A stretch of 64,000 nucleotides of DNA from Balanoglossus misakiensis (Eukaryota > Animalia > Hemichordata): assembly GCA_040954595.2 (NCBI GenBank), contig CM082592.2, positions 1,736,001 to 1,800,000 on the forward strand, written 5' to 3'. The position numbers and the translations under genes were made by a program. A model generated the notes under the pieces. It was not told the origin of the DNA, did no database searches, and saw nothing but the letters and a program-made list of their open reading frames with translations. Each line of letters opens with the position of its first letter. Position 1 is the stretch's first letter. Shown here in pieces: positions 4,315-51,126 of the stretch.

Positions 4315-6100
4315 ATGTCAAAGGCACAACAACAGTGTGTGGAGTTGGCACTGCTTGGTCGCAATATCTTCATCACTACTCCCAAAAATTGTACAGATTG
4401 TGTGTCCTACTGATGCAGCTTGCAGCATACATGATGATCTGCCAGAAAAGTCCAAAACTATTCACAGTGTTTTTTTATTGGGCTGGCTGACCATGCAATT
4501 CAAGACATTCTCAAAAATGCAAAGGAGAATGTTGCGACACAGTTGAGAGAAGTTGATGTACTCATAATTGATGAATTTTATGGAAAGTGCTCGTCTGTTA
4601 AGTGTCATTGCTATATTAAGTAAAGTGTGCAGAGAAGGCAAGCAATCATTGGTGGTATCCAAGTGATTGCAATTGGAGACTTCCATCAATTACCACCAGT
4701 ACCAAGCCACGTGGATGATGGAGAATACCCATTCCAGTCCCCATTGTGGGAAAAAAACCTTCAGACACAACATTGTCCTCAAAACTATCTATTGTGATGA
4801 TGAGGTCATTTTAGTGTGACCTTTACTGGCTAGTAAGATTTCTTTTGTTTAGGGTGACCAGGTGTTGATGAATATTCATTTGATTGACATGTATAAATAC
4901 ACATGCTACCATGTGGTCAGGTTGCTATTTTTTCGGTGGCTAGTAAGATTTCTTTTGTTTAGGGTGACCAGGTGTTGATGAATATTCATTTGATTGACAT
5001 GTATAAATACACATGCTACCATGTGGTCAGGTTGCTATTTTTTCGCTGGACACTGTGCCGGTAACTTCAGTGCTGGGGACTCCATGCTGCTGTTTGGGAC
5101 CTTTCGCAGGCCGTTTTGTTTGACGTCAAGGACTTCAGAAGTTGTGAGTGCATGCACACCACTTGGACCTAAACCAGACTTTCCTGCTGTTTTGTTTGAC
5201 TTCGAGTACACACCACTCGGACCGAAACCAGACTTTCCTGTACGTCGGAAGTCTTTGACTTTACTGCATATTTGCTGCTCGTGTGCTTCACGACTGGAGT
5301 CCTAGCTGAGTATACGGAGTGCTGTGTGTGTTGCTCAGTTTGGTTCGCATTCATTGTTTTATGACCTGTGAATCCCTTTTTTGCCTGCAACTTAATTTTG
5401 TTAGTATAGCGAATAGCCATTAAAGAATTTTTATAAAAGGAAAACCACTGACTTCGCCCTTTCTGTCATAACACTATAGACAGCAACACAATCAGCAAAA
5501 ATTCCTCCAAGCTTTGAATGGTGTCCGCCTCGGCCAATGCAGTCCTCGTACATTGGATTTCCTCAACACATTGAAGCGGCCTCTGCTGAACCCAGAAAAC
5601 CAAACCCACAACTACTTTCATAATGCAGATGTGAACCTCCACAACATGTGTCAGCTTGATAAGTTAACAGGACAATGCCATGTTTTCCAGGCAGTTGATA
5701 AAGGGGACGTGCATGAAATGGACAGGCGTGCCATTGCACCAAACAAGCTCTTACTAAAGGTTGGCGCTCTTGTGATGTTGGTATACATTCTCAGTGACAG
5801 CCTTCACAATGGGAGCACTGGCATTTTCAAAGGAATAGATGAAATTGGAAATCCTGTTGTAGCCTTTGAGGATAGCCTGATATAGGTGTCTGTGCGTCGT
5901 CAAACGTGGACTTTTAAAACGACCAGGGAGTTGGGATTGGAAGGCGCTGTCAAATCCTTTTGAAGCTGTGCTGGGCAATGATAGCACATAAATGTCAGGG
6001 ACAAACGATCAAGAATGTTGCCATACACGCAGGCAACGAATTTGTTCTAGGGCAATTGTATGTATCACTTTCAAGGGCAAAATCATAAGATACAGTTCTG
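4315..6100 (+). pseudogene. Decayed Pif1-family (SF1B) DNA helicase, probably transposon-borne
   Basis: Motifs in order across shifting frames: QQQCVELALLGRNIFIT, KTIHSVF, VDVLIIDE, GGIQVIAIGDFHQLPPV, LYRQQ, LKVGALVML...LHNGSTG, LKLCWAMIAHKCQGQT, GQLYVSLSRAKS. Many frameshifts and stops. Confidence 0.85.
4793..5473 (+). mobile_element. Solo-LTR-like TG...CA insertion in the Pif1 pseudogene, with an internal 110-bp tandem duplication
   Basis: Termini TGTGATGA/TCATAACA; flanks ATAT/CTAT; removal restores LKTLYRQQ; duplication at 4827-4936 and 4937-5045; ATTAAA near the 3' end. Confidence 0.6.
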
Positions 6101-10952: not shown

Positions 10953-11102
<150 letters not shown>

Positions 11103-15897: not shown

Positions 15898-17703
15898 AAA
15901 ATATTGAGCTCTTCTGATCTGTGTGGACGTGCACTTTGTTCTTCGCTGGGGCCTCACACACGCAGTTATGTTTAAACAGTTGTTTACGTATTTTATAGTG
16001 ACTGTGATGGTAAGCAGATTGAACCATGTTAGAAATGTTCTGAAGACATTAATAACGAACAGTGGTCAATTAGTTTGATGTCGCCCGTTACGGCACTTCT
16101 CCAGTTCAAACCATCGCTCATGCCGTGGAGTGACAACATGAACAAGGTGCCCACTTTTATCGAGGACGACTTTGATTCACCAGGGCAACAGTATCGAATG
16201 CCCCAGTTATATACATGTGTACATTCGCATGTGGTAAGCATGTTTGGCACGTACACAAGTAGGTAGCCTTGATAAGGAGTTATTTGGGCGGAAACTGTGT
16301 CATGGATCTCGGTCATACGGAGGTTATGGGCGTGTGACCGAGATCTCACTTCTGGGCGATCGGCAAAAGTTCAACCCAAAACGGAGAAGAGTGTAGTCTG
16401 AATGTGGCGATTCGTCTATCTAATGGAATGAAAGAAGTGGTGTAATCATTGAATGATTCGCCTCGTTGAAAACAGTAAAAGTTACCTGCAAATGTTAGTT
16501 CAGAAAAAAACAGACTTTTGTTGAGTGAGAAATTGAGGAGAATATGAAAGTGATGTACACATTTGATATTAGAAACGGCTTTAGATTATAAGTATATACA
16601 ATGTAGATAGTGAAATTGGTTTACTACATCTGAATCTTTGAATGACGCGAACATCTTTTCTGCCTTTATAATAAGAAGGCTACGTTCCGAGTGACAAATT
16701 AACTGTAGGATACATCGCGTATTGGAGCAGTGGCGGACAGTGATTTCCAAGTTATGGAATCAGGCAGTACACGTACTATAGTCTAAGTAAGTTGAGACTT
16801 TGCAATTGTTTAGATTTTGGCAATCTGATAACATAGAAATATACTACAACTGCACATCGTTTCGCACATCAATGGACTCATCGCCAGTTGACCCATACAA
16901 CCCTGGAGCTCCAGGGACCTCAAGTCCCAAATTCACGCCCACATTTTCAACTCATGACCTCAAATTGTTGACTAAATGTAGTGTCAGCACATTTCAAAGT
17001 CACATTTTAACACACCAACTCACTGTACACAACTCGCCGATAATTATTTTCAAAAAACCTACTAGTCGATTTCGCAACTCGCAAAGTAGAATTATAAAAT
17101 GTATACTAACAATCATCGACTTTTAAATCAGTATTTCAACACTCACATCCACAATTGAAACTCTCGAAGCCACATTCGCGTTAATGATACAGAACGGCCA
17201 GCTACGCCACCTCTTTTTGTCTAGAATGGCAACTATATGTAACATCTTGCCTTTTTAGTATTTTTATTTTATGTATCGAATGCATTTTTTATTTAAGGTA
17301 AGTATTCCATGACTACGCATCTGTGCCGATCATGTCACTGGCCGTTGACAAAGGCAAGTTACAATTTGCATACAATAATATTGATTGTTCGCACGTGGAC
17401 GGTGTTGAAAAGATAAGCTGCACGCATTTCACCCCTGCCTAAGGGTGTCCAACAAGAAACCAAGCTTGATACACCCAATAAAAATATTGAAAACTAGCCA
17501 AAGGTCACATATACCTTTATGCAATCATTGGCTCCACAATCATTTCGATAAATGTCCAGTCCGTGCTCGTCCTGGTCATAACTTTTGTATATTTCTTAGT
17601 TTGGGTCATGCAAACTTGACAGTCCCAAATCAACATATCTTTTGATATATTGCATCCGGCCAGATTCTATTGGATACATTGAAGTAGTTCAAGACGAAGT
17701 TAT

Positions 17704-17745
17704 CCAATCACGTCAGTTGAGTAGTCAGTGGTGTGCATATATATA
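17704..17745 (+). promoter_or_regulatory. Candidate core promoter of the peptide precursor gene
   Basis: CCAAT (17704), CRE-like TCACGTCA (17708-17715) and TATATATA (17738-17745), about 65 bp upstream of ATG 17809. Confidence 0.55.
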
Positions 17746-17808
17746 CATGTAGGACAGACCACTGCTTAGTGGACAATAGCTCGCCAACGGATCTGTTTGC
17801 ATCTCGTC

Positions 17809-18523
17809 ATGATGAAACGCACTGTCTTGTTGACGCTCACCTTCCTGTCTCTGGTTGTGTTGTCTCAGACTGAAGACAGTCTTCAAGAATCGCCGGAAAT
17901 GCGTAAAAGCTACCTGCACAAGTTCGTTGAGAAAAATCAGGTAATGTAACTTTCTTGAGTAAGTTCATTGACCACGAAGCTAGTCGTTTCAGCACGTGCT
18001 GCTAACGTGGATTGTTTAAAATATGTTTGTTCATTGGTAATGTGCATATAAAACCGAAATGAGTAATATCGTATTCATTGAGAGATTTAGGAAAGAATAA
18101 TAATGGCATTTTTACAAAAATATATTTCTATCCTAAGTTTGATCTATGGAATAAAAACAGGAAAAGTTTAGTTTGTCATATTGTCATTTTACAACAGAAA
18201 ATCAACTTTTCGTGAATCCAAGGATGACGTCCTCTACAGCAGCGTTTTGATATTTGATTTTTTTTCTCGGTTTGGAAAGTTTGGGAGTTCATATCCAATG
18301 GTGTCATACTTATGCACTAATGTACTAAAATAACTTATATGAACCTTACATGTATGCATACATGTACACAAGCATACATACATACATACATACATACATA
18401 CATACATACATACATACATACATACATACATACATACATACATACATACATACATACATACATACATACATACATACATACATACATACATACATACATA
18501 CATACATACATACACACACACAC

Positions 18524-18555
<32 letters not shown>

Positions 18556-21500
18556 GCGCACGCACGCACACACACACATACACACACATGTACACAGACA
18601 GTTTGATTGATTGATGAATGGATATTTTATTCATGTCCCCGTTTCATATTTCAGGCAAGAAACCAACGCGATTTGTGTAAGTAATAAGTTGCGACTTCCT
18701 TGGGTACATTATTATTAATTTAGAGGTTATAAACGGCTAGCGAGGGTATTTGGTTGCGGATATAAGACCTCTCAGGTGAAAATTAGCATATTTGGCTGGA
18801 AATAATCACCGAGCGAAGCGAGGTGATTATTTCACCCAAATATGCTAATTTTCACCTGAGAGGTCTTATATCCGTACCAAATACCCGAGCGCACCGTTTA
18901 TAACCTCATTATAATATGATTTTGCTTGATAAAGATAAACAATTTCATTTTTTCAAGTCCGTTGTTTGGTTGGGGATAAATCGTGCTAGTTCTAGGGCCT
19001 CGTCGCGCACTGTTCCAGAACACGCAAGCTGAGCTCGTGCAAACGTGTTCTAGAATTTCTAAAGTCACGCGATTTTATGCCACTGCCAATACAATTCATA
19101 AAGTGCGTTCTATTCAGGCGCGTTCTCTTCTACATGTTCTATTTCGGTTACTTTTTTAAAAACTATTCACTGTTCAGGGTCCAGGTACTAGGTCTTCTTG
19201 TCGAGAATATAAACCCCGGCTCAAGCCAATCAGCGAGCTGGATTCACGCCAAGCATATTATAATAATTATTAAACCTCATGCAGAATTATGTAACCATAA
19301 AGGCTAGAACTCACTTATAGTATAGGATGGACAGTGATACAATTTGACTGGATAGACTATTATGTGTCTTCTATATGCCATGTTGCCTTTCTATTTATTT
19401 ACGCGCTCAGAAGACGTCACGAATCAGCTAGCTCATAAAACTGGCGATCTCTGACTTCGTCTTAGGCATTGTCAGTATTGTCATAGACCACCACAATCTG
19501 TGGCAGTTTGCGTCCAAAAGATATACCTATATTGTAAATCAACAAAATCCATCCCTATATGTATAACTTTGAGGGAACTTGCAACAATCGTTTGGTGAAT
19601 ATCAATTATATCATATCATGCTACCGTCCGCGATTCTGATTGGACGAGAGCGATGGTTAAATACTGTTTTACCACGGCTAGCGGTGGTAAAACGGGCCCC
19701 TGAACTAGCATGCAGCACGGAAAATGTGCGGTTAAACCACAGTCGTGAGGGATTAAACCAATAAATAACATAAAAAACACTTGAATTTACAGATGTTTTA
19801 TTTTGGAACTGCTCTGCTCTGAATATTTTGCACTTTTGTCACTTTTTGTCGTGTGCTTCATGTTAAATGCTCGATCCCGGGCCGCTCGTGTTTACATTCA
19901 TCGTCGCCATGTTGGTTTACGATCGTTACTTCTTTTTCTGACGCTGTTTCGTTGAGAAAATGACACTGGTATGCCACAAAATCAATTGTTGATATAATAT
20001 AATAGCCATAACCCCCGCCTAAGTCGGGTATACACTCGATTTTTGGTACAATTCGCTCCATATACATGTAGCACTCGACTGACGGCTCGTGCTATATGTC
20101 TCGATTGTACCCAAATCTCGTGTATACCCGCTGCGGCGGGGGTTATTGCTTAAATACATGTAACCTCACAATATGCCACGTTTTTGTCTTAACAAGCCTG
20201 TAATTGCGCTCTTTGCGCTAGTACTTGCACCCACGACGAGGCCCAAATATGCTGTATACTTGATCCAGAAAATCCCTGTTGTACAACAAAATAAGAAGCA
20301 AGAAAACTTGTCATCTATGTGCAGTTACTGGTGAGTCCAATTTACTGGTGATTACTAGTAATTCTTATAACTGGCCTGTATTGCCACCTGCGTGACGTAG
20401 AACAGGTCAAATAAAAATCCGAATTCAAACCTTTTCTACGTCATCAACCGGAAATATTTTCGCTGATTCGCCCATTACTGTGGAAATAAAATTTTAGCGC
20501 ATGTACCGGTATAGATGTACAGAAATAAAAAATGACGTCACGGTTCCACGATTATCTCGCGTAAAATCAACACGAGAAAGGTAGGATTTGGAAAGAGGAC
20601 AGTCGACGCTACGAGTGGGTGAGCTTGCAGCTGTAGGCCAGTCGCAGTAAAATCGGTACTCAGAGAATAACATTTGTGCAAGGTCCCAGGATAAGATTTT
20701 GTCGCCACGATCATTTGTATTTCTGCGGGAAATGACACCGAACGACTGCATACTGCACTGCATAATTTAACGTCGCCGACGCCGCAACTGCAACAGTTCC
20801 TTGGACTTATTTTTAAAACCCTGTCACATTAATAGTTTTGGAATACATGCCACTGCAACTTGGTTTTTATTTTTTAACTTTTACGCGAAGTACTTCATTT
20901 TCCAAATAAAAATGCAACTGAACTGGCGGCATGACTTCCCGGGCGAACTGGACTCAACAGGACGACTTGCTGGGACGTTGTGTTGAGTGTTGACACAGCG
21001 CGAGACAATGATTGGCAGGCCACATTCTTGTCAACGTGACTAACTCCGCGATTGTGATCGGTAGACAAGACGCAAAGGGATAAACCGTTGATTTTATGAA
21101 TGAACAGCGATCCCTATTTGCATATCTCATGAAGGAAAGCTGTCTGGGCTAGATCCTTGCAGACGAAAAAAAATAATCCCGCTAAGTTAAACACGAGGCT
21201 GGTCGACTATTTTAGCAAGATACTGAAATAATGTAGTTCTGCCCCTTCTAACGAAAAATAAGTAGACTGTTCATGACATTGATAAATATATAACCCCATG
21301 ATATCTTTCTTTATTTAACGTCATTGTAGACTCGTGGTTTTCGCGGAGGTGTACAACTCGCCTACGGCTCTACGGCAAACAAACCGTCTCTACCTTTAAT
21401 AATATTTCAAAGTTACTTTGATACAATATGTATTGGTTGGCAGGGTCTCCCTGAAGAGAAGGGAAAAGTGTGGGGTTTCTTGTAATTTCTACATTTTTTC

Positions 21501-21714
21501 AAGAATATAGGCCTATTTTATTTCTGTGAAAATCATCAAGACACAAAAGTATATCATCAAGACACACAGATATGAACACCTTGCCAATAACCATAGTACA
21601 TTTAATAAACATCAAGTTTTCATTTGTAACTTTCTCGCAGGTGAACAATGGCCCCGAGGACGTTTACCAAAAGAAGAAATGAATACTTGCAAAGGAAAAA
21701 GATTACATACATAG
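17809..21714 (+). CDS. Secreted peptide/neuropeptide precursor, 75 aa; exons 17809-17940, 18655-18676, 21641-21714
   Basis: GT-AG joins with phases 0 and 1 give [75 protein letters not shown]. Signal peptide, RNQR site, two Cys, GKR; AATAAA at 21798-21803. Confidence 0.72.
18372..18590. repeat. (TACA)n followed by (CA)n/(CG)n microsatellite
   Basis: Directly visible; lies in intron 1 of the peptide gene. Confidence 0.97.
18723..19265 (-). mobile_element. Hairpin-ended non-autonomous element with a 185-bp palindrome at 18723-18907
   Basis: GAGGTTATAAACGG...CCGTTTATAACCTC arms, centre CCGAGCGAAGCGAGG, CCAATCAG near the other end; related remnant at about 49900-50005. Confidence 0.7.
19607..20153 (+). 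mobile_element. Non-autonomous hairpin-ended repeat (Crypton-like), copy 2
   Basis: Homologous to 2283-2828, with a complete terminal palindrome at about 20004-20150 ending in TTAA. Confidence 0.7.
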
Positions 21715-23418
21715 ATTCTACGTACTGTTAAAGATTGGACATTTTAAAAGAAGGAATTTGACGTCGCTTTATACATATACGTACGCTTTATATTTTGAAT
21801 AAATGAATATGTACGTGTGACGTTTCCTTGCATTTTGTTGTTTTATTTGAACATATTTCTCGAACACATTCCTTTGAAGAATATGAAAGAGGAGACTTGC
21901 CCTGTATTACATCTTCATATTTCATATTTTCGAGATTTTCTTTAACATTCCCAAACAACGGGCGCCAGACCAGTTACAAACTTATGCAGCACAATTTCAG
22001 AAGATTTGTCATCTATAAGACATACGATGTGTCAGCCATGAAATTGAATAATCATATCTGCTTAGCAGTAATGGCCATAGTGTACTTATAATCAATTGCC
22101 AAGAAAACAATTTATGATTTTAAGCTTTCTGTATAAAACTTCGTTTTCTGTTTCTTTGTCTTGTTACTGAGCATAATAACCACTCTGTAATATAATTTGA
22201 GAAGGATCTTTATGAATCACTAAAAAAACACTAAAAACTCCATGTTTTCTTCCCGGAATGTGCACTGCTTTTGCCTAGCAATATTATTTATATAGTGGCC
22301 TGTATCTCTCTAACCTCCAGCAGACCTCCATAATCATGTGGTTCTGTACGATGTACAGGTCACTGTGTGTGCTAAACTGAAAGATTTAGTCGTTTTCCGG
22401 CAATGCCATGGTCCCTTCTGGAAAGGGTATTTGGGAGTGAGCCGGAGCGCCCGCACAGGACTCAATCTTTCAGTCTGTGTGTGTACGTGCGAAAGTTCGG
22501 AAGGTGCAATGGGCACTGTCAGGTATTGAAAACACGGTTTTCTGTACAGTGCAGTGGTGCGCGAGTATCACTTATGCCATCATGCAAGCAAGTGCCTTTC
22601 TTGCCAGTGTTTCAGGCGCACATAAAAAATCATACTTCTGCATTGCAAATATTTCTGTGCTGTCACTGGTGGCGCCCTACACTACCTAAGGGTTTTCGCG
22701 GGCACGACTTTTTGGAACGAGACCGTTGGAAGTTTGGTCAAACGCTCGCGATTGTCATCTACTTTACAGAGAATTATGGTACAAATAACGACTACAACAA
22801 CGTTGTACGTTTGTAGCCATTCTGGCATTTAATTCTTACACACATTAAATCTACACGGCTTGAAAGTATTTCTAAAAATCTGCATGTAGCCGCAATGACA
22901 AGCTCTATAAATGACAAGCATTGTGTCAGCCGGACGGAAATACAATGGACGTATTTCACTGGAAATGAATTTGATAAGAATGTTGCGTGCATGAATATTC
23001 TCCAGTATGATATTTGGATTTTTTTCTAAAGATTGAACATCTTAATGCTTGTAATATATATATACGATTGTGATTATGACGTAATCCCTTTGAACACCAC
23101 AGTGTGACAGCAACATTTTTACACCCATTCTCGGGAATTGGGAATAATTGTCCATTTGTCTTTATGCCTGAAGAAACACTCGAGAAATAATGTGGAAAAA
23201 GGAGGGTTTATTTTTGAAAGACGTACTATCACTTTGAATGGGTTAAAACGCCTGGAAGCATACAACCACAATCAATGGTTGATAACGACCATCAGTAAGT
23301 TAATTTAATTGGGCCACTCATAAGTTTGAAAGATCCCATTCCCCCTAGACTGTAATAATTAAACGGGTAGAAATGACTGGATGATCTTTTGAAGAAAAAA
23401 AATACTTTATCGGCGGAC

Positions 23419-27924: not shown

Positions 27925-28588
27925 GATGGGTCCCCCGTATCTTTTTGCCCGTTTCTATGGGCCTTTATAGGACACTACAATCAATTTTGATCGAAACAGT
28001 TATGAACCTCCGACAAGGGGCTTGTAACTAGTTAAAAATAAGCACGATTGTGTGCACACCCCCTGTCCGAGTATGGTTACGGCAGCTACCGCCCGGCCAT
28101 AGGCCGCCACGCTAATACGGCAAAGCAGCTGTCGGCGATAGCGTTCGCGTCCTGTAACCACAGTAACTGGATCGAACGCTAAAATCCAATGTTTTGTACA
28201 CAAAGATTTTGTAACGTTCACAAAAATCCCTAAGGCTTTTTTCATAGGCCACGTACGCCAGTCAAATTTGACTTGTTGACAGAGAACACGCTTCAGCATA
28301 GCGTGAAGGGTCGTTTCAATGGATATCATCGCGCTAAGAAGCGATACCGGTGGAAGAGTGCGTCCAAAAACACCTAAAATCGGTGACTTTTTCAGGTGTG
28401 GTACGGGTATGCTGAAATCATAGGATACAACGATCATATTCGAAAACAAAATCCTTCACGATCTTCTCTGGTTCGAGCAACTAATGAATACGTATCAAGT
28501 TAGTTTTTGAGGTCACGGAATAAAAAGCCTTAGGCATTTGTAATTTGACCAGGCTAATTTGCATATCAATGTCGTCAGGGGGCGCGCG
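27925..28588. mobile_element. Second, right-truncated copy of the Kolobok-like element
   Basis: TTAA at 27921-27924, then sequence colinear with 8718-9382; abuts the LINE. Confidence 0.85.
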
Positions 28589-28589
28589 G

Positions 28590-30365
28590 TCATATCCGAA
28601 CTGGTATGATAATGATTTGATTTGTCTTGAAAAGGGAAAACAAAAAGCTGGAAGGAAATTCAGGAAATCTATGCACCCAGACGACTATAAGTGTTTCGCT
28701 GACTTAAGGTCGTCCTTCAAAAAACTGCGTAATTCTAAATACAAAGACTACATTTCTGAAATTGAGCACTCAGTTACCCAAAATCCCAAGCGTTTCTGGA
28801 GTTTTGCAAAATCAAAATATAAATGTGCAACTGTTCCTCAGAGCATCATTCACGATAATGTACACGTCACAAAATCTCAAGATATAGCAGATGTTTTCAA
28901 CAATTAATATTTAATTCTGTTTTCACTGACTCCGAAATACTGGATTTACCTTCTATCACTGATGTTAACAACAGTTCACTGTGTCACATTTCAATTCAAG
29001 TTGATGCTGTTGAAGCAATACTCAAAGATATCGATCCGCGTAAAGCTAGTGGATCCGACAATATCTCAGGTATTGTCCTGAAAAATTGCTGCAGAGAATA
29101 ATCTGTTCCCCTTTCTGTCATTTTCCAGATGAGCATCAACTGGGGAACCTTTTCTAGCAAGTTTTAACACGCTAATGTCATACCTGTTTTCAAGGGAGGC
29201 AATACACAACTGGTCAATAATTATCGCCCAATTTCACTTTTGCCACTTATGGGGAAAGTTTTTGAACGTTTACTTCACAATAATGTGTACCCTTTTGTTG
29301 AAAGTTATTTAACTGAATTTCAACACGTTTTTGTTAAGGGTGGTTCAACTGCACCTAATCTAGTTTCATATGTTGACTTTCTTTCTCTAAGTCTCTTGAT
29401 TCCAAGAAGCAAGTCAACACCATATATATTGACTTTGCTAAGGCCTTTGACACTGTCAACCACAAGCTGCTTTGCCACAAACTTAGTTCATCTGGTCTTT
29501 GTGGTCCACTTCTAAAACGTTTTACTTCATATCTAACAGACAGATATCAAAGTGTTATTATTCATGATAAATCATCATTTAGCACCCATGTCCCTTCAGG
29601 AGTGCCTCAGGGTTCAATTTTAGGACCCTTGCTTTTTGTTGTGGACATTAATGACCTACCAAATGTCCTCCTCTACAGCCAGAGCAGTGTGTATGCTGAT
29701 GACTCTAAATACTTTCGCAAAATTGACTCCAGAGGCGATAGCAGTTTGTTACATGGGGATTTGTTGAGGGTTGCTAATTGGTGTAATTTGTGGGAGCTCA
29801 ACCTAAATGTTCTCAAATGCAATGTAATTTCCTTCACCATTAAGAGAAATTTTATCGCGTACGATTATTCTATCAATGGTTGTGAGTGTCTGAGATCAGA
29901 GACTTGGGTATTATCTTAGTTTCTGATCTATCATTCAAGAGGCATATTGAAGAAATGTGTAAACGAGCTCTCAAAATGCTTGGATTGATAATGAGTGCCT
30001 GTAATACTTTTTCTTCGCCGAAAGCTTCGGCATCTTTGTATATATATATATTTAGTTAGAAGCAGACTAGAGTACTGCTCTGTGGTCTGGTCTCCAACCT
30101 GTCAGTATTTGAGTGACCGTGTAGAGAAAGTTCATAAAAGGTTCTTGAAGTTAATGTGCCTGAAGTTTATTGGTTATTACAATAGTGATTATTATCAGTC
30201 CTGCATGCATTTTATGCATATTTACTGTTTCAGGGAGATTTTCTTCTCCCTACCTTTTATATCAAGTGCCACTTTATGTAACCGCCAGACGCCTCAAGGC
30301 CTCGTCATTCTTTCAAATTCCACGTTACAGGCTGAATCTCAGAAAATTTTCTTTTATCCCAAGGT
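28590..30365 (+). mobile_element. Decayed CR1-group LINE ORF2 (reverse transcriptase)
   Basis: NPKRFWSFAK, NYRPISLL, DFAKAFDTVNH, SGVPQGSILGPLLF, YADDSK and LEYCSVVWSP, with frameshifts. Confidence 0.92.
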
Positions 30366-30521
30366 CAATTACGTGAACAATAGACTCTGTTTATTGGTAT
30401 TTTATGCGGGTACGAGGCTGGGTCCTGGTACGAGGCTGTGTCACTTGACCAGCATCTTCTCATAGCTGTTGTCGCCGAGAAACCCACCTTGCCGCCAGTG
30501 TGTGTTTGTAAAAATTTCACC

Positions 30522-31520
30522 ATGGTAGAAAGCGGTCATAATTACTCATTTGTTGAGTGGTGTGAAACGAAACATCTGTCAAAGGACACGATCGACAAGT
30601 TGACTACAGAACAAATCACCTCGACGGAAATCTTGACAACCATACAAGAACAGGACATTGTTGACCTCGAACTGCCCCTTGGCCGACGGAGTCTACTAAG
30701 ACGGGTAATACGAGATATGTCCGATAACCCGACCAGAGTAAAGCGACAAGAACCAAACGGCGGCGGGAAGGAGGAGGTGACATCGCCGGTGACGACCAAG
30801 TCCCTTGCCAAAGACAAAATCCTCAACGAATTGATGGAGTCTTTAGGGAACGACGCACTGAAAGATGTGTTGGAAAGTGGCGCCAAAACAAGTCCCGCGC
30901 ACCCTGAACACGCTAAAGGTGAGAGAAAGCCGCTTCTTATCCCCGACTTCATCACGTATGGCAAAGGCGTTATTGAACCATGCGATGAAACAGAACTAGT
31001 GAGTGATGGAAATACCAAACTTGTGGTGCGCACCACGAAATCACGCCCCAAGCCAGAACAAATATCCCTCGCCCAGTGGGTCTCGGCAAACGCACGTATC
31101 ATGAAAAAGGGAATCGAAGCAGGTGATACGTCAAGCGAGGAAATCATGGGTTACCTGAACCACACCATTAACATCGGGGACTATGCCCAGACCTTCACGG
31201 TGCCCTCAGTGATGACATACGATAATGAATATCGTAAGAAGCAGGCATCAACAAAATCCAAGTGGGGTGGAGTGGATTTGCACCTTTCCCTGTATTACTT
31301 GGATAGACGTCAGCCACCCTTACAGACGGGTAAACGCCAACAACTGAGACCACGCCAACAGGATCGCAGCGGCAAAGAAATATGCTACGACTACCAAAAG
31401 GCAGCAGGTTGCCAACGAACCTCATGTCGGTTCGCACACATTTGCATTGAAAAAGGATGTGGCAAAGACCACCCACAGTTCCAACATGGCGACCCACACT
31501 TGAATTCTACACAACCATAG
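30522..31520 (+). CDS. Gag-like ORF1 of the DIRS/Ngaro element, with N-terminal SAM-like domain and C-terminal Cys/His fingers
   Basis: Open 332 aa from ATG 30522; QDIVDLELPLGRRSLLRR; YDNEYRKKQA; CYDYQKAAGCQRTSCRFAHIC...C...H. Confidence 0.85.
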   Translation: MVESGHNYSFVEWCETKHLSKDTIDKLTTEQITSTEILTTIQEQDIVDLELPLGRRSLLRRVIRDMSDNPTRVKRQEPNGGGKEEVTSPVTTKSLAKDKILNELMESLGNDALKDVLESGAKTSPAHPEHAKGERKPLLIPDFITYGKGVIEPCDETELVSDGNTKLVVRTTKSRPKPEQISLAQWVSANARIMKKGIEAGDTSSEEIMGYLNHTINIGDYAQTFTVPSVMTYDNEYRKKQASTKSKWGGVDLHLSLYYLDRRQPPLQTGKRQQLRPRQQDRSGKEICYDYQKAAGCQRTSCRFAHICIEKGCGKDHPQFQHGDPHLNSTQP

Positions 31521-31556
31521 GATGAGGACTCTAGCCCACTGACTACATGTTATGAT

Positions 31557-32625
31557 GTGTGGGAGCGGGAACTTTCTGCAGATTCGGATAGAGACTTTAT
31601 TTTACACGGATTGCGCTATGGGTTTGATATTATTGACCCAGGTAGCCCCCTGACACCAATCGATCAGACTAACTATCAGTCCGTCACTTCAAGTAAACTC
31701 AGGAGTGCAGTAGAAAGATGGTTGCGTGAGGAAATCACAAAAGGCAACTATGTTGTCACACCTCGCAAGCCGATGTTGATCAGTAGTCTTGGCGCCATCG
31801 AAAAATCAGAACCAGGCAAAATCAGACTCATTCATGATTGCAGCAGGCCAATTGGCAAAGGCTTGAACTCAAAGGCCACAACAGAGTCCTTCAAATATGA
31901 ATCAATCGACTCGGCAGTCAAACTGTGCAAGAAGAATTCATACATGGCAAAAATTGACTTGAAATCGGCTTACAGACATGTACCAATCAGCAAAGACTCT
32001 CAAAGGGCTACAGGGTTAAAATATCAGTTTGCGGGCGATGGAACATGGACATACATGGTCGACACCAGACTGCCGTTTGGAGCAGCAAAAAGTTTTTCAA
32101 TAGAATTGCCCAGAGTGTGGTTCGTATGATGCACAGACGAGGCTACAAAGCAACTATTGTATACTTAGATGACTTCCTGATCATAGCAGATTGTGAAGCT
32201 GTGTGTGAACAGGCTTTCCAGACACTACTGCAGCTGTTGCGGGAACTGGGTTTTGCAGTGAATCAGCAGAAGGTTGTGGCTCCCACACAACGTTTAACAT
32301 TTTTGGGAATTCAGATAGACAGCGCCAAACAAACCCTTGCGTTAGATGACAAAAAACTTGCAGACCTGAAGCTATGTCTTTCCATGTGGGATGGAAAGAA
32401 GCGTGCAACTAAGCGTGAATTGCAGCAACTTATTGGCAAACTTAGTTGGGCGGCCAAAGTTGTACGCGGCGGGCGTACATTTTTACGCAGATTGATTGAC
32501 TTGATGGCCGCGGTGCGTCAACAGCACCACCATGTGCGGCTCAACCAACAGGCGAAAGCGGACATCAGATGGTGGAATGACCCGTGCAAAGTGTTTATGG
32601 TACGGCGTTTTTCATCGAAAAGCAT
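31557..32625 (+). pseudogene. DIRS/Ngaro reverse transcriptase (frameshifted, interrupted)
   Basis: KIRLIHDCS, KIDLKSAYRHV, RLPFG, YLDDFL, TFLGIQID, LIGKLSWA. Confidence 0.92.
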
Positions 32626-33836
32626 TACCCTAGGAGATAGGTGCCGTTAATCAGAATTTTTGGTGAGGAAGGTTTGAGAAGTCCATTCTATGTAAAAAAT
32701 GGTGCTGATTCCAAAAAAGTCAGTCTTATTGACCCCACTCAAGACAAAATTGCCATTTTGGCCATTTTTAACCCAAAAATGGTCTTTTTTAGAAAACACT
32801 AAAAACACACTGTTTACGTCACATTCTGAGATCTGATGACATATGATATGCTTATTCTATGTAAAATTTGGTGAATATTACGAAAAAAGTAGTCTGATTG
32901 ACCCCAAACAACACAAAATTGCCTTTTTGACCATTTTTTGCCCCCAAAACGTCATTTTTAGAAAAAATTTAAAACACACGGTTTTCTTCATAATGATTAA
33001 TCTGGTGATATATGGAAAGTCAATTCTATGTTAAAAGTGATGACTTAAAAAAAATAAAGCAGTCTTTTTGACCTCAATCAATACAAAAATGCCATTTTTG
33101 GCCACTTTTTGAGGTCAAAAAAGGTCATTTTTACAAAAAAACTAAAAATAAATTGTGTTCTTCATATTCAGAGATCATTGGATATATGAAATGTCCATTA
33201 TATGTAAAAAATGGTGCTTATTCCAGAAATAGCAGTCTTATTGACCCTACTCAAGAAAAAATGCCATTTTTGCCACTTTTTGCGCAAAAACGTCATTTTT
33301 AGAAAACACTCAAAATTTATATATTTTCTTCAATTTCGGAGCTCTTGTAGAGTTCACACGGATATAGAGTAGCGTTGTAGAGTTGACACGGACACACGGT
33401 TACGGTATGCAATTGTACTGCTATACTTTTATTACGTAACATTCAAATACACACCAAAAGCAGATACACACAATGGCCTCAAGAGGGCGTCCTAACACGG
33501 TGTACTTTTAGACAATGGTAAGTATTTAGCATGGACACTACATCCCTTTCCACCTGAAATGATATGAGCATGTATTGAAGCCAAGTTTCAACTTGTCACA
33601 AATTTGTTGGAGAGGTAATAAATATAGAGTCTCAATGTCAGTGTCCTTTACTTCTCATCTGTTTGATTCCGCATCGCTACAAGTGTTCTGTTGTCAGAAT
33701 TGCTTAGAATTGTTTACATACAAACAAACATCAAAATATATCATTCACACAATCATAACATTCAAACTACCTTGAGGGGAGAGGTTTCCAACACATTCAC
33801 CCTCACAGGTGGATCCTCAGCATCCACCTTCCCTAA

Positions 33837-35210
33837 CTATGTCACATAGTCTTTCAAGTATGCTGGCCGTTTCCGTTCACGGGTTGGATATCTTCGTCCT
33901 GGTGTTACTGTAGTAGTTTCAGTCACAGGGGCTTCTGTGGAAGCATCTGTAGAGACATCAACTTCTTTCACTGCAATGTCAACATCTGATTCTTCATCCA
34001 GGTCAGGTTGAACTGGCTGACTGTCGAGGACTTTGAAATATGATGAATTTCGTGTTACCTCATGATTTCCTCGTTTCACAGTTACCATGCTGCCTTTCTT
34101 CGATGAAACTTGGTATGGTTCAGTTATGTATGGAGACGTTTTCTTTGGTATGTATCCCTCACGCTTGACAAGCACGACGTCTCCAATTTTGACAGGGTGT
34201 TTTCGAATGCTTTCATGCTTGTCTGCGTACAACTTCATCTTTGATTTCTGTTTCTTGTCACGTGCGCGTACTCTCTTGTCAGCTTGCTGTGGAACTATTT
34301 CAGGAAGACGTGTTCTCAATGGTCGACCAAACATAAGTGTAGCTGGTGGTTCACCAGTGGATGAGTGTGGTGTTGCTCTGTAGTTTCTGAGAAAACGATA
34401 AACTTCCTGTTTCCAAGCTTTACCTTCTGTGTGTGATGTTCTGTAGACTTTCTTGATGGTCTTCATTAGGCGTTCAACTTCGCCATTGGCTCGTGGCCAT
34501 CTTGGTGTCACTTTACGGTGTTTAAAGCCTAGATATTTTGCAAACGCTTCAAATTCTTGTCCATTGAACGGTGGTCCGTTATCCGATCGCACAATCTTCG
34601 GTACACCAAATGCTGAAAATATACGATCTAACTTCGGAATTACTGCTTTCGCAGCTGTTGATGTGACAATATCGACTTCTGGAAATCGACTATAATCATC
34701 GGTGACAACAAGCAGGTATCCTCCAGTTCCTAGATCTGAAAAGTCAACACTGACCTCCAACCATGGTCCATCAGGCAACTTCGGCATTCGCAGTGGTTCA
34801 CGACTGTTGTCTATTGTTGTTGCTTGACAGGGAATACATGACTTGACTGTCTTTTCAACCATCACATCTATGTTTGGAAACCAAACCTTTTCGCGAAGTA
34901 GCTGCTTAGTCTTCACGATTCCTTGGTGACCTTCATGTGCAATGTCAATTATTCTCTGTTGCAATCTATCTGGTATTACAATTCGGTTACCACGAAGTAC
35001 TAGATCACCAGATTTCGTTACGCTGAGTTCACCGCGTACTTGGAACAGGCTTTTCATTGTTGCTTCAATTTTAGTGCATTTTGTCTTGGTTAGTTTCGTA
35101 TGCCAATTGTCATTTCTCATGGCCTGGATAGACAATTGTAGGGCTTCATCGCTCAGTGTGGCTTGCTGTATTTCATCTATCAGAACCGTTTTAGGAACTG
35201 AGTGTTCCAT
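33837..35210 (-). CDS. Gypsy integrase (HHCC + DDE)
   Basis: AHEGHQG...CIPC, VSVDF, RSDNGPPF, ANGEVER. Confidence 0.93.
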   Translation of the reverse strand: MEHSVPKTVLIDEIQQATLSDEALQLSIQAMRNDNWHTKLTKTKCTKIEATMKSLFQVRGELSVTKSGDLVLRGNRIVIPDRLQQRIIDIAHEGHQGIVKTKQLLREKVWFPNIDVMVEKTVKSCIPCQATTIDNSREPLRMPKLPDGPWLEVSVDFSDLGTGGYLLVVTDDYSRFPEVDIVTSTAAKAVIPKLDRIFSAFGVPKIVRSDNGPPFNGQEFEAFAKYLGFKHRKVTPRWPRANGEVERLMKTIKKVYRTSHTEGKAWKQEVYRFLRNYRATPHSSTGEPPATLMFGRPLRTRLPEIVPQQADKRVRARDKKQKSKMKLYADKHESIRKHPVKIGDVVLVKREGYIPKKTSPYITEPYQVSSKKGSMVTVKRGNHEVTRNSSYFKVLDSQPVQPDLDEESDVDIAVKEVDVSTDASTEAPVTETTTVTPGRRYPTRERKRPAYLKDYVT

Positions 35211-35244
35211 GATGAAATTGATATGTTCTTCAGCAATCTTTTCC

Positions 35245-36530
35245 TCACGACTTAAAGCTTGATGGTTTGGTTGACGGTAGTGGATGACGGGACATGTAAT
35301 CAGCTGGATTCAGCTTACCTTCTATATACGTCACATCAAAGTTGTATTCTTGTAGTTTTAACACCCATCTCTCTATGCGAGTTGGTGGTTTGGCAGTTGG
35401 TTTGTTGAATAATGGTACCAGGGGTTTATGATCTGTAACCACTATGAAATCGGTTCCATACAAGTAGAGATGGAAATGCAATATGGCCCAAGTTACAGCT
35501 AGTGCTTCTCTCTCCGTCTGAGAGTACTTCTGTTCCACCGGAGTGAGGGATCTGCTTGCAAGCGCTATGATAGAAATTCCCTTTTCACCATCTGGCTGTG
35601 CAAGAATAGCTCCAAGGCCAACAGGACTGGCGTCAACAAGAACTTCAGTCTTCTTCTTTGGATCATAGTAAGCGAGAGTACAATCTGCAGCTATTTTCTC
35701 TTTAATCAAATCCAAAGCTACCTGTTGTGCATCTCCCCATTCCCATACTGATGACTCTTTCGTTAGATCTCTGAGTGGTTCAGATATTGTGGCTAGATCT
35801 GGTACAAACCTGCTGTAATAGTTCTGCATGCCCAGGACACATTCTGTGGTGGTGGCGTCTCTTTGATTGCTGAAACCTTCTTCGGATCTGGCGAAATACC
35901 ATTACGACTAAATACACAACCGAAGAACTCGACTTCATTCTTTTTGAACTTGCATTTCCCTTTGTTAAGAGTTAGATTCTTCTCACGTACACGTTGTAAG
36001 CAGGCGTCAACTCGTTGATCATGATTTTCATCTGTGTTTAACACACCATCAAGTCCTTCCAACGTAGTACGTATGTAGTTTTGAAACAGCTCAGCTGCCG
36101 AACAAACTCCGAAATTGAGACGTTTATAACGGAACAAACCGATATGAGTCGAGAAGACTGTGAGATGTCGTGATTCAGGAGCAAGTTCTATTTGATGATA
36201 TCCGGCATTCAAGTCTAGTTTAGTAAAGACTGTAGAACCATTCAGATCTGCAATGACATCATCTAGAGTCGGAGTGATATGTCTTTCTCTTTGTATTGCT
36301 TTGTTGGCTCCACGCATATCCACACAGACTCTCACGGCATCGGGATTCTTGGGTTTCTTTACAACATGAATCGGCGAAATCCATGGTGTAGGTTCATCAC
36401 CAACCTTTTCTATGATGTCCAAATCAAGTAGTTTCTGTATTTCTTTCTCAGTCTTCTTTCTCACATGGAAGGGTATGCGTCGATGTGGTTGCATAACAGG
36501 TTTAACAGACTTATCTTCATGCAAATGCAT
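35245..36530 (-). pseudogene. Gypsy RT and RNase H, with frameshifts and a catalytic deletion
   Basis: VRVCVDMR, KLDLNAGYHQ, RLNFG; the xxDD motif is missing (GVLN-TDENHD); VDASPVGLG, YSQTEREALA, TDHKPL. Confidence 0.92.
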
Positions 36531-37792
36531 TGTACTCCCTTCAGTTTACCAATACCATGAAACAGGTCATCATATTTGTCAAACCAGTAATTTGCATTGG
36601 CTGGACATACCGAATTGATCTCATCTGACAGTCTCACCATGTTGAGCTTCTTGGCAATATCGTAGCAAATAAGTGTATCTCCATTTCGTTCAGTTACTAT
36701 GAACTTGGCAGGACAGGACTGAGATCCATATGATACGTCAGCAAAAATCACGCCTTTGATTGGTAAAGGTGTGTCAGTACCATATGCATATAGGTGGGTC
36801 TTGTGAGCTGAATTCAATTTCGGTTTCTTCTTTAAACAACTGTAAGTTGAATAACTCATGGCATTTATGGTAGCACCAGTGTCTATGAGGACTGGGAGCG
36901 ACGTGTTGTTTAACTCAACAGTTACAATTGGTCTCCCTTCTTCTTGTGTCAATTGTGGATTCACACTAAACACATATTCTTCATCTGAACTATCTTCTTC
37001 ATGATATATGGCTTTAACCTTCGTTTTATTGGGTGTTTTATTCATTCTTGCTCTGCAACACTTGGCAAAGTGGTTCAGCTTTTTGCAGTAGTTGCACACT
37101 TTCCCTTTTGCAGGACACTCTTTTTCGTGTGGGTACTTTCCTCTACAGTTGTAGCATTTATTATTTCGTTTGAATGTTTGTGGTCGATTTGGTTTATATT
37201 TGCTGGGGTGGGGATTACGTTGCTGTTGTCTGACGGCATTAACACTTGTAGTTTCAATTGCTTTTTCCATACTCAAGGCTTGTGATTCTGAGATTTCTAA
37301 AGATCTTGCTATATCAAGCAGACCTGTTAATGTCAATTCCTCACGTAGGGCACGACGTCTTACTCGTGTTGATAAACATCCACGAATAATCTGTGACTTT
37401 ACTTCTTGATCTTTGTCATGAAACTCACACGTTGCAGCTAATTGTTGCAGCCTGGTGCTATACTCATCAACACTTTCGCCTTTGTTTTGCATTGTGTCTC
37501 GAAATACAAAACGTTCATACTCCATTTTACGTTTTGGAGCGAAGTATGACTGCAGTTTATCATGTGCGTCTTTGTAAGTTACGCCTGTGTCCGTCAGCGT
37601 TTCAAAAATATCCATCACATCATCCCCAGCATAATGTAATAACAGAGCTCGTTGTTGTTTATCATCAGTTATATTGAATGCCACAAACATATTCTCTATC
37701 TTCTTGACGTATTTCTCCCATCTTGGACCAACCGAACTAGTTTCGGAATGTACTAAGAAATTCGGAATTGACGGCAAATTCAAGGAAGCCAT
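36461..37792 (-). CDS. Gypsy gag (two CCHC-type knuckles) plus aspartic protease
   Basis: CYNCRGKYPHEKEC, CNYCKKLNHFAKCC, LIDTGA. Confidence 0.92.
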   Translation of the reverse strand: MASLNLPSIPNFLVHSETSSVGPRWEKYVKKIENMFVAFNITDDKQQRALLLHYAGDDVMDIFETLTDTGVTYKDAHDKLQSYFAPKRKMEYERFVFRDTMQNKGESVDEYSTRLQQLAATCEFHDKDQEVKSQIIRGCLSTRVRRRALREELTLTGLLDIARSLEISESQALSMEKAIETTSVNAVRQQQRNPHPSKYKPNRPQTFKRNNKCYNCRGKYPHEKECPAKGKVCNYCKKLNHFAKCCRARMNKTPNKTKVKAIYHEEDSSDEEYVFSVNPQLTQEEGRPIVTVELNNTSLPVLIDTGATINAMSYSTYSCLKKKPKLNSAHKTHLYAYGTDTPLPIKGVIFADVSYGSQSCPAKFIVTERNGDTLICYDIAKKLNMVRLSDEINSVCPANANYWFDKYDDLFHGIGKLKGVQCICMKISLLNLLCNHIDAYPSM

Positions 37793-40700: not shown

Positions 40701-41419
40701 GGCATTTTTGCATTAGGTTGGGTCCAGAAATCTGCTTTTTTGGAATAATCACCACATTTTACATAGGGTGGGCATATAATACATTATCAGAGCTGAGTAG
40801 GGTCAATAAGACTGCTATTTCTGGAATCAGCACCGTTTTTTACATAGAATGGACATTTCATATATCCAATGATCTCTGAATATGAAGAACACAATTTGTT
40901 TTTAGTTTTTTGTAAAAATGACCTTTTTTGACCTCAAAAAGTGGCCAAAAATGGCATTTTTGTATTGATTGAGGTCAAAAAGACTGCTTTATTTTTTAAA
41001 GTCACCACTTTTAACACAGAATTGACTTTCCATATATCACCAGATCAATCATTATGAAGAAAACCGTGTGTTTTAAATTTTTTCTAAAAATGACGTTTTT
41101 TGGGCATAAAATGGTCAAAAAGGCAATTTTGTGTTGTTTTGGGTCAATCGGACTACTTTTTTCATAATATTCACCAAATTTTACATAGAATAAGCCTATG
41201 ATATGTCATCAGATCTCAGAATGTGACGGAAACAGTGTGTTTTTAGTGTTTTCTAAAAAAGACCATTTTTGGGTTAAAAATGGCCAAAATGGCAATTTTG
41301 TCTTGAGTGGGGTCATTAAGACTGATTTTTTTGGAATCAGCACCATTTTTTACATGGAATGGACTTCTCAAACCTTCCTCACCAAAAATTCTGATTAACG
41401 GCACCTAGCTCCTGGACTA

Positions 41420-41958
41420 ATCTGTTGCCCATGCAGGAATTTTCTACTGATGCGTGTGTTACAAGCGGCGGTGGTTACTTTGGAAAAGACTGATTTTACA
41501 CCAATTGGCAGGCAGATTTTCCGGAATTTGCAGACTGTCATATCACATTAAAGGAACTCTTTGCTGTCTTCATTGCTTGCAAGCGCTGGCATCCATTTTG
41601 GAAAAACAAACATGTGATCGTGTATACAGACAACATGGCCACTATGTACATGATCAATTCTGGCACTAGCCATAATAAGTTGGCTATGACATGGTTACGT
41701 ACTTTATTTTGGCTGTCGGCAACCTCAAATTTTTATATAACCGCACGTTATATACCATCAGGTCAGAATCTGGCTGACCCTTTGTCAAGACTTCATGAGA
41801 TAAAGCATTATTTCAAAGCAATGGCATTTTTAAAATCCAATGCAATGGCAGGTACTCAAGTGGGTGATTGGTACCCTGGTAATATGACCTATGAATCTTA
41901 CCGATTGCTCTTACAGGGCCTTTGCAGGACCAAATGGACGTACTGGACCAAGAGATGA
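41420..41958 (+). pseudogene. DIRS/Ngaro RNase H
   Basis: FSTDAC...HITLKELFAV...VYTDN...YIPSGQNLADPLSR. Confidence 0.9.
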
Positions 41959-42104
41959 CGGCTTACAAATGGTCAGCCTATGCCGAATCAACAAAGAAAG
42001 CATATAAGACTCACCGTGATACCTTCCTGCGTTTTTGCCTTTATTTTGAGTTAAGACCTGTGCCAGCAGACACTCTAACAATCTGCAGGTATGCAGCCTT
42101 TTTA

Positions 42105-50513: not shown

Positions 50514-51115
50514 AGCCCCAGTATTTCTCGTAGGGGCAAAATTTTGTTTGAAACGGCATCTATAATTTCTAAAAGTAGATGATAATTGATTCTGAATCGA
50601 ACAGTCATCATCCCCAGCTCTGCTCATAAACTCATACAATTTACAATACAACGAGTGAAGAATGATTTTCTGTCCGGACAGAAAGTCACGCGAGTCAGGC
50701 TCCTGTTGACACACGTGACTAGTGCGCATGCGCACTCCAATGTGAATCTATGCGGAAGAGGTTTGGTCGCCCCAAATCAAGCGACTCAGCGAAGAAATGC
50801 GCACTAATTCGGCGAAATTTTGGGAAGATAACTTTATGGGAGAAATCAGTCGATGGAACCAGATCAAATCCGAAAATGGTCTGACCATCAAATGTCAAAG
50901 TGGCACGTTTGCTGATCGACATGTGCAACATGTCCGTTGTAAACAAACCCGCGCATCATTTCAAGTGTTACGGGCAATATTTACAGCTTGCACGTAGCTA
51001 CATTTGCCCAAACCTTTCTTCTGTCTTCATTATGTAGTATTCCATGATGAATGTACGGGAAAAACGGGCATTTTTCGATGATGAAAAATGGATACACACG
51101 AGAAATACTGGGGCT
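50514..51115. mobile_element. Kolobok-like MITE (602 bp) inside the IS3EU-like left TIR
   Basis: TTAA TSD; TIR AGCCCCAGTATTTCTCGT; the empty TTAA site is visible in the opposite arm at 53235-53238. Confidence 0.88.
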
Positions 51116-51126
51116 TTAAGTATAGC

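What the first reader, a model, noticed from the sequence alone, without database searches (positions are those of the whole stretch)
17809..21714. Hidden 3-exon precursor of a candidate novel cyclic, amidated neuropeptide
Seen: three exons, one only 22 bp, splice in frame to 75 aa with a hydrophobic signal peptide, a spacer, RNQR, then [23 protein letters not shown]. The first Cys codon is built across the last splice junction. TATA, CCAAT and CRE-like motifs lie upstream and AATAAA downstream. Established: R-X-X-R is a furin-type convertase site and G-KR directs C-terminal amidation. Inference: the mature peptide is [22 protein letters not shown]2 with a 17-residue disulfide ring. I do not recognise it as a known family.
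Basis: partly seen in the sequence, partly recalled or inferred. Interest (0 to 1): 0.9.

Follow-up and report, generated by a model that had tools for sequence, protein, structure and literature searches.

The report
Orphan cyclic amidated neuropeptide precursor gene
Among the transposons of an animal genome lie three small exons that join in frame into a 75-residue protein with an export signal, likely the precursor of a 20-residue ring-shaped signalling peptide that matched no known family I could test; its expression and processing are untested.

Summary
Exons 17809-17940, 18655-18676 and 21641-21714 have GT-AG introns and join into 75 codons: signal peptide, acidic spacer, RNQR, a 20-mer with Cys52 and Cys68, then GKR. 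The promoter motifs and AATAAA are in place.

It is unlikely to be chance. This is the window's only such first/last exon pair, and 0 of 40 shuffles gave one, although the criteria were set after seeing the gene. Only 1 of 20 candidate internal exons gives the two-Cys/GKR frame.

No genome, RNA run or homologue was available, so expression, taxon and conservation remain unknown.

The closest families are somatostatin/allatostatin-C and MCH. They share a C-terminal ring and similar intron layout, but their defining motifs are absent here. The protostome single-disulfide 'DREP' families could not be tested.

Verdict: probably a real, unannotated neuropeptide precursor with textbook processing and no assigned family. 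It is worth RNA-seq and peptidomics but is not a new kind of system.

The parts
17669..17715 (+). Proximal promoter motifs: ATTGG (17669), CCAAT (17704), CRE half-site ACGTCA (17710-17715)
   Evidence: Seen in sequence; 1 of 6 TATA+Inr sites has both motif types, 0.08 expected; function inferred
17738..17770 (+). TATA box (17738-17745) and Inr-like TTAGT (17766-17770); predicted start of transcription near 17768, 5' UTR about 41 nt
   Evidence: start site inferred from the 30-nt spacing
17809..17940 (+). Exon 1 coding part: residues 1-44; signal peptide about 1-19, acidic spacer, dibasic RK at 32-33
   Evidence: signal peptide called by a hydropathy rule, not SignalP
17941..18654 (+). Intron 1, phase 0, 714 nt, holding (TACA)n/(CA)n/(GC)n repeats
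18655..18676 (+). 22-nt exon 2: residue 45, the RNQR cleavage site (46-49), residues 50-51 and the first base of Cys52
   Evidence: the only 1 of 20 candidate internal exons giving the two-Cys/GKR frame
18677..21640 (+). Intron 2, phase 1, 2964 nt, splitting the Cys52 codon
18711..18918 (.). Foldback element (probably a MITE) starting 34 nt after the microexon donor; its stem holds the two higher-scoring cryptic donors at 18776 and 18823
   Evidence: Fold -136 kcal/mol, z -22, 0 of 200 shuffles as stable; arms; donors; masking effect inferred
21641..21714 (+). Exon 3 coding part: rest of Cys52, residues 53-75, Cys68 (21688-21690), G-K-R (21694-21702), TAG (21712-21714)
21798..21850 (+). AATAAA (21798-21803), 84 nt after the stop, followed by a U/GU-rich tract

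Best explanation
Three exons at 17809-21714 join in frame into a 75-residue protein with a hydrophobic N-terminus, RNQR, two cysteines and GKR, and this is likely a real single-copy gene for a neuro-endocrine peptide precursor whose predicted product is a 20-residue, disulfide-closed, C-terminally amidated peptide that would likely act on a G-protein-coupled receptor. Shown in the sequence: exon and intron signals, the open frame, the processing motifs, promoter motifs and poly(A) signal. Inferred from established prohormone biology: (1) transcription from the TATA/Inr promoter, perhaps cAMP-responsive through the CRE half-site; (2) inclusion of the 22-nt exon, needed to set the frame and supply both the cleavage site and Cys52; (3) signal removal after about residue 19; (4) a Cys52-Cys68 disulfide; (5) PC1/PC2 or furin-type cuts after R49 (basic residue at P4) and at K71-R72, probably also at R32-K33; (6) carboxypeptidase trimming and PAM amidation from Gly70, giving residues 50-69-NH2 with equal numbers of acidic and basic side chains and a monoisotopic mass of 2429.14; (7) release and receptor binding. 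The family is unassigned; the nearest in design is the somatostatin/allatostatin-C-MCH group.
For: The frame and motifs are exact. The acceptors are the two best in the span and in the top 0.4% of the window. It is the only such first/last exon pair; 0 of 40 shuffles gave one. 1 of 20 internal-exon candidates restores the GKR frame, and that same exon independently carries RxxR and completes a Cys codon; skipping it gives 57 residues with no Cys and no GKR. The full promoter motif set occurs once, 0.08 expected. No second copy lies in the window. The peptide is not cationic, unlike typical antimicrobial peptides. A single C-terminal two-Cys peptide is the layout of SS/ASTC and MCH precursors (PMC7536072 sections 20 and 34; PMC4772807 passages).
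Against: There is no transcript, peptide, conservation or tissue evidence, and no homologue was found. The microexon donor is mediocre (rank 463 of 7860). Two longer exons from the same acceptor outscore it and would truncate the protein at 53 residues, and a 6-nt candidate exon at 20325-20330, if also included, would remove one Cys. The chance criteria were set after seeing the candidate and the splice matrices were approximate. The same design is used by non-neural secreted peptides and venom peptides.
Confidence: 0.7

Rival explanations
1. A special case of the best explanation: the peptide is a divergent member of the somatostatin/allatostatin-C or MCH group and acts on an SSTR- or MCHR-type receptor.
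For: Single C-terminal cyclic peptide. Phase-0 then phase-1 introns, as in echinoderm SS1 genes. 15 residues between the cysteines, within the 12-15 of echinoderm SS2. GR-aliphatic-(x)-P inside the ring, as in SS1 peptides; about 0.8% of ring shuffles have it. MCH genes have three exons, with intron 2 splitting a codon at the start of the mature peptide (residue 4; residue 3 here). Recalled, shown by no call: mammalian MCH has a Gly-Arg-aliphatic motif 6-8 codons after that split codon, the same offset as G58-R59-L60 here, and PMCH's two introns have the same phases.
Against: No FXP and no F/IWK; no Met/Ile after Cys1; no basic residue before Cys2. In the sea-cucumber SS1 gene the phase-1 intron lies in codon 104, ten codons before the first Cys at residue 114 (my count), not in it. 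In MCH the first Cys is three residues after the split codon. An unrelated brittle-star CCHamide-like peptide shares GRLPK too, so such short matches arise easily when many families are compared.
Confidence: 0.2
2. A special case of the best explanation: it belongs to a small peptide family already described that I could not compare, above all the protostome single-disulfide doppelganger-related peptides (triangle, hairpin or tail DREPs).
For: These families have one disulfide, neural expression and a range over molluscs and annelids, for triangle DREPs also arthropods and flatworms (PMC13311285 section 2.6). The taxon of the window is unknown. My searches could not detect a 20-mer at about 50% identity.
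Against: No shared-word hit among 5.8 billion clusters. No matching precursor in the annelid or nemertean/brachiopod/phoronid supplement passages seen, although these papers predate the DREP description.
Confidence: 0.2
3. A real gene for a non-neural secreted peptide (defensive, venom-like or pheromonal) that uses the same signal-spacer-RxxR-peptide-GKR design.
For: Signal, acidic spacer, basic site and amidated disulfide peptide is also the design of many exocrine peptides (established knowledge). The lack of detectable relatives fits fast evolution.
Against: Net side-chain charge is 0; no tandem paralogue in 64 kb; a CRE-like site lies near TATA.
Confidence: 0.1
4. The gene model is wrong or a chance assembly of segments from intronic or intergenic DNA.
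For: No reads and no homologue; the microexon donor is weak; rival donors exist.
Against: 0 of 40 shuffles; top-ranked acceptors; promoter, signal peptide, RxxR, Cys pair, GKR, stop and AATAAA all fall in order.
Confidence: 0.12
5. An invertebrate natriuretic-type peptide acting on a receptor guanylyl cyclase.
For: The 17-residue ring and an Arg at ring position 8 match the natriuretic ring (ring size and consensus recalled; Arg position; Arg falls there in 13% of shuffles).
Against: No Phe after Cys1 and no Pfam match. Natriuretic peptides are described as a vertebrate family (PMC13311285 passage).
Confidence: 0.03

Closest known systems
Echinoderm somatostatin/allatostatin-C-type precursors (SS1, SS2; PMC7536072, PMC8851493)
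   Same: One two-Cys peptide at the precursor's C-terminus; phase-0 intron in the N-terminal half; SS1's second intron is phase 1; SS2-sized ring (15 residues between the cysteines); GR..P inside the ring
   Different: No FXP or F/IWK; phase-1 intron in the Cys codon rather than 10 codons upstream; GKR amidation site; precursor of 75 residues against 102-139 in the examples read
Melanin-concentrating hormone precursors (vertebrate PMCH; echinoderm and hemichordate MCH-type; PMC6901935, PMC4772807)
   Same: Three coding exons in vertebrates, with intron 2 splitting a codon at the start of the C-terminal cyclic peptide; short precursors in echinoderms (88-91 residues)
   Different: Ring of 17 against 10-12; no Met/Ile after Cys1; no basic residue before Cys2; the split codon is the Cys itself
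Echinoderm CCHamide-like 1 / np25 (PMC5627052 supplement)
   Same: Amidated two-Cys peptide; the brittle-star peptide shares GRLPK
   Different: Peptide lies directly after the signal peptide, the ring has 9 residues, and it ends in His-Pro-amide
Protostome DREPs: triangle, hairpin, tail (Koch et al. 2023, seen only as reviewed in PMC13311285)
   Same: Single-disulfide putative neuropeptides from short precursors
   Different: Unknown: sequences not seen
Vertebrate natriuretic peptides
   Same: 17-residue disulfide ring (recalled), Arg at ring position 8
   Different: No Phe at ring position 2, no Pfam match, amidated, not a vertebrate-like genome window

Membership tests
Neuropeptide/peptide-hormone precursor (class) | N-terminal signal peptide | tested here: met
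   Basic n-region and uncharged hydrophobic core by a hydropathy rule; SignalP not available
Neuropeptide/peptide-hormone precursor (class) | Convertase sites flanking the peptide and Gly-basic amidation signal | tested here: met
   R46-x-x-R49, G70-K71-R72, also R32-K33
Neuropeptide/peptide-hormone precursor (class) | Spliced transcript in neurons or endocrine cells; mature peptide detected | not testable with these tools
   No RNA holder listed; no peptidomics
Somatostatin/allatostatin-C | [quoted passage not shown] | tested here: met
Somatostatin/allatostatin-C | Phase-0 intron in the N-terminal part | tested here: met
   After codon 44 here; family feature; phase 0 is common, so weak
Somatostatin/allatostatin-C | FXP (SS1/ASTC) or F/IWK (SS2/SS) core motif | tested here: not met
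   Both absent; definitions
Somatostatin/allatostatin-C | SS1 phase-1 intron at the same position | tested here: not met
   Codon 104 against Cys114 in the sea-cucumber gene; in the Cys codon here; only one SS1 gene checked
Somatostatin/allatostatin-C | Activates an SSTR/ASTC-type receptor | not testable with these tools
   Needs a receptor assay
MCH | Three exons, intron 2 splitting a codon at the start of the mature peptide | tested here: inconclusive
   Residue 3 here against residue 4 in MCH, but different relative to Cys1; invertebrate MCH intron positions not obtained
MCH | Met/Ile after Cys1 and basic residue penultimate to Cys2 | tested here: not met
MCH | Ring of 10 (vertebrate) or 12 (invertebrate) residues | tested here: not met
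   17 here
CCHamide-like 1 / np25 | Peptide directly after the signal peptide, C-terminal His-(Pro)-amide | tested here: not met
Natriuretic peptides | 17-residue ring with conserved Phe2 and Arg8 (consensus recalled) | tested here: not met
   Ring size and Arg present, Phe absent; no Pfam hit
Triangle, hairpin and tail DREPs | Family Cys spacing, motifs and intron positions | not tested
   Only the review summary was read; the primary paper was not opened

The most novel reading that the evidence does not exclude
An undescribed family of cyclic amidated neuropeptides built on the MCH/SS1 gene scaffold (phase-0, then phase-1 intron at the start of the peptide) with a redrawn, larger ring. If the genome is a hemichordate or another non-echinoderm deuterostome, it could be the missing ligand of the SS/ASTC-type receptors for which no precursor had been found (PMC8851493).
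Probability: 0.12. Interest if true: 0.75.

Novelty: new member of a known kind. Interest (0 to 1): 0.45.

Why it matters
Short precursors split by a microexon escape gene callers, so real signalling peptides are missed. This one comes with a testable product (2429.14 Da) and two junctions to check. If it is a new family, it adds a ligand for receptor de-orphanisation. If it is related to somatostatin/allatostatin-C or MCH, it bears on how those cyclic-peptide systems arose; as of 2022 hemichordates and xenacoelomorphs had SS/ASTC-type receptors but no known precursor (PMC8851493). The processing mechanism itself is textbook.

Tried and rejected
No whole genome is held, so there was no paralogue, synteny or receptor search. 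No RNA holder was listed; this is no evidence either way.

Protein searches, each with a single exon and never the spliced protein: no candidate for exon 1 among proteins of 24-77 residues, nor for the 67-residue exon-3 frame among proteins of 36-118 residues. Longer proteins were not searched there. The phmmer search of 1.84 billion representatives gave 2 hits, both long repeat proteins matching partly the intron-derived residues; rejected. Pfam 0 of 2, NCBIfam 0 of 2, PDB 0 and 1 at E 1.2. ESM Atlas: best score 0.80 for exon 1; unnamed clusters at 0.93-0.94 with 77-87 of 256 shared features and mixed taxa for exon 3, no family. A metagenome pattern scan gave 9 loci, 0 of 9 with the Cys..GKR context. 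Earlier scan findings: nothing; one search listed 8 unrelated microbial items.

Literature: a 9-residue motif was in 0 papers; six short motifs were in 4 papers, off-topic by title. Searches listed no paper whose title or abstract start describes this peptide or a hemichordate SS/ASTC precursor. Figures are not searchable. Motif searches of supplements found no matching precursor in the passages shown: ophiuroids, Platynereis (11 files searched, 5 not; 18 of 24 places shown), xenacoelomorphs, crinoids, spiralians (6 passages). Platynereis MNC, crinoid PCNP3 and PCNP19, and starfish Arnp22-25 (descriptions only) were rejected on Cys number, spacing or position.

Taxon: a DIRS-type ORF's 11 relatives are only 32-38% identical, two named from corals, and the cluster look-up gave no names, so the taxon stays open. 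A rival signal-like ORF at 20173 in intron 2 would meet exon 3 in the wrong phase. No fold or complex was predicted, since no single exon holds both cysteines.
Full report
Observation. Intron 1 is phase 0 after codon 44; intron 2 is phase 1 and splits the Cys52 codon. The protein has a basic then hydrophobic N-terminus, an acidic spacer, RK at 32-33, R46-x-x-R49, Cys52, Cys68 and G70-K71-R72. Upstream lie ATTGG, CCAAT, a CRE half-site, TATATA at 17738 and TTAGT with its A 30 nt later; AATAAA follows the stop by 84 nt, then a U/GU-rich tract. An in-frame stop precedes the ATG.

Is it chance? I scored splice sites with approximate generic matrices. The two acceptors rank 19 and 25 of 6678 AG sites and are the two best in the gene span; donor 1 ranks 80 of 7860; donor 2 only 463 of 7860. 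On both strands of the window, 7 ATGs passed a signal-peptide-plus-donor filter; the only 2 with an upstream TATA are this gene's tandem Mets. One terminal exon had Cys followed by G[KR][KR] and a stop: this one. None of 40 dinucleotide shuffles gave such a pair within 5 kb. Of 20 candidate internal exons, only the 22-nt one yields two cysteines and GKR, and it also supplies RxxR; skipping it gives 57 residues without Cys. Against this: two longer exons from the same acceptor score higher but hit a stop at 53 residues, and adding a 6-nt candidate exon would remove a cysteine. The two higher-scoring donors lie inside a 200-nt foldback (z -22), which may mask them; that is an inference. TATA plus Inr alone is at chance level (6 seen, 6.36 expected), but the full motif set occurs once against 0.08 expected. 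All criteria were chosen after seeing the candidate, so these figures overstate the significance. I put the gene model at about 0.88.

Surroundings. The rest of the window is an animal repeat landscape. Of 20 long ORFs scanned, the informative Pfam hits are reverse transcriptase, integrase, gag, RNase H and Pif1 domains. There is one tRNA-Thr(AGT), microsatellites, CpG o/e 0.77 and 13 copies of TACATGTA. I saw no second copy of the gene and no other clear host gene, so there is no synteny to use. A marine invertebrate is my inference; the phylum is not established.

Relatives. No genome is held and no RNA run was listed. Single-exon protein searches found nothing real, and 0 of 9 metagenome pattern hits had the right context. 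These searches need several exact 5-mers or E of 0.001 or better among 1.84 billion proteins, so a divergent 20-residue orthologue would be missed. The blank shows no close annotated relative, not novelty.

Mechanism. By established prohormone biology the protein would enter the ER, lose about 19 residues, form Cys52-Cys68, be cut after R49 (basic P4) and at K71-R72, and be trimmed and amidated from Gly70. The product is residues 50-69-NH2, a 17-residue ring with two N-terminal and one C-terminal flanking residues, balanced charge and 2429.14 Da. R57 and R59 inside the ring lack the upstream basic residue that monobasic cleavage usually needs (rule recalled), so the ring should stay whole. RK at 32-33 could free two spacer peptides. 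Single copy, neutral charge and a CRE-like site favour a neuro-endocrine messenger over a defence peptide. A GPCR target is the default for such peptides and is untested.

Comparison with known families. Somatostatin/allatostatin-C precursors carry one C-terminal two-Cys peptide and a phase-0 intron in the N-terminal half; echinoderm SS1 genes add a phase-1 intron, and SS2 peptides have 12-15 residues between the cysteines (PMC7536072). This gene shares those traits and a GR-L-P stretch like SS1's GR..P (0.8% of ring shuffles). But FXP and F/IWK are absent, and in the one SS1 gene I could check the phase-1 intron sits ten codons before the first Cys (PMC6586643 supplement). MCH genes have three exons with intron 2 splitting residue 4 of the mature peptide (PMC6901935). 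From recall only, MCH's Gly-Arg-aliphatic motif lies at the same offset from that codon as G58-R59-L60 here. Yet the ring size and both diagnostic residues fail, and hemichordates already have an MCH-type precursor. A brittle-star CCHamide-like peptide shares GRLPK but has a different layout, which warns how easily such short matches arise. The natriuretic ring has the same size (recalled) but the conserved Phe is missing. Single-disulfide DREPs of protostomes are a live rival that I could not test (PMC13311285). So the gene works like a neuropeptide precursor of the SS/MCH design but is not shown to be a member of any family.

Papers seen. Passages: PMC4772807, PMC10508912, PMC13330826, PMC12002301, PMC8851493, PMC5860471. 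Passages and named sections: PMC7536072, PMC6901935, PMC13311285 (2.6). Passages and supplements: PMC5627052 (file 4 whole), PMC3890597 (11 files searched, 5 not), PMC9793003 (section 36; file 2, part 2 of 2), PMC6586643 (section 22; spreadsheet rows). Supplement search only: PMC6188537, PMC8557429. Not seen: Koch et al. 2023 (PMC10501145), known only from the review; its sequences and supplements bear directly on novelty. Sequences printed only in figures were invisible to all ten searches.

Verdict. It is probably a real, unannotated precursor of a cyclic amidated peptide, processed by a textbook route. The family is open: roughly 0.2 SS/ASTC-MCH related, 0.2 another described family, and the rest of the neuro-endocrine reading undescribed. 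Novelty: new member of a known kind. Interest 0.45, rising to about 0.75 if it proves to be the missing ligand of orphan SS/ASTC-type receptors.

Noticed in passing
window 18711-18918: Near-perfect 200-nt foldback (-136 kcal/mol, z -22) just after the microexon; it holds two cryptic donors that outscore the real one. One end resembles 49956-50008, so it is probably a MITE.
   Followed up: partly
window 10955-11028: Single tRNA-Thr(AGT), Rfam 71 bits.
   Followed up: no
window 30384-33345, with related pieces at 40794-42000 and 60790-61440: DIRS-like retroelement: gag-like ORF with a CCCH finger, frameshifted RT, RNase H piece; the ORF at 60790 looks recombinase-like by eye (no Pfam hit). Closest database relatives are only 32-38% identical.
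   Followed up: partly
window 33837-37819 (minus strand): Fairly complete but frameshifted Gypsy-type element (gag/PNMA, protease, RT-like, integrase); 33346-33542 and 37969-38165 are 99.5% identical direct repeats, probably recent LTRs.
   Followed up: no
window 51110-51781 and 52389-53244: Two arrays of a 63-nt unit in inverted orientation, 97-100% identical, suggesting a large terminal inverted repeat or a recent inversion.
   Followed up: no
window 32670-33345, 38165-41370, 43790-45210: Dispersed satellite of about 170 nt in both orientations, 65-95% identical.
   Followed up: no
window 5472-5885, 28524-30465, 901-1665: Pif1 helicase fragment (Helitron-like), a decayed LINE RT, and a LINE-tail-like ORF.
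   Followed up: no
window 20173-20330: Signal-peptide-like ORF ending at the strongest donor of the region (20331) inside intron 2; wrong phase for exon 3, no TATA, probably chance.
   Followed up: partly
window 19604-20156 and 2275-2831, 39245-39577: Repeat family shared between intron 2 and two other places (68-78% identity), with an internal inverted repeat.
   Followed up: no
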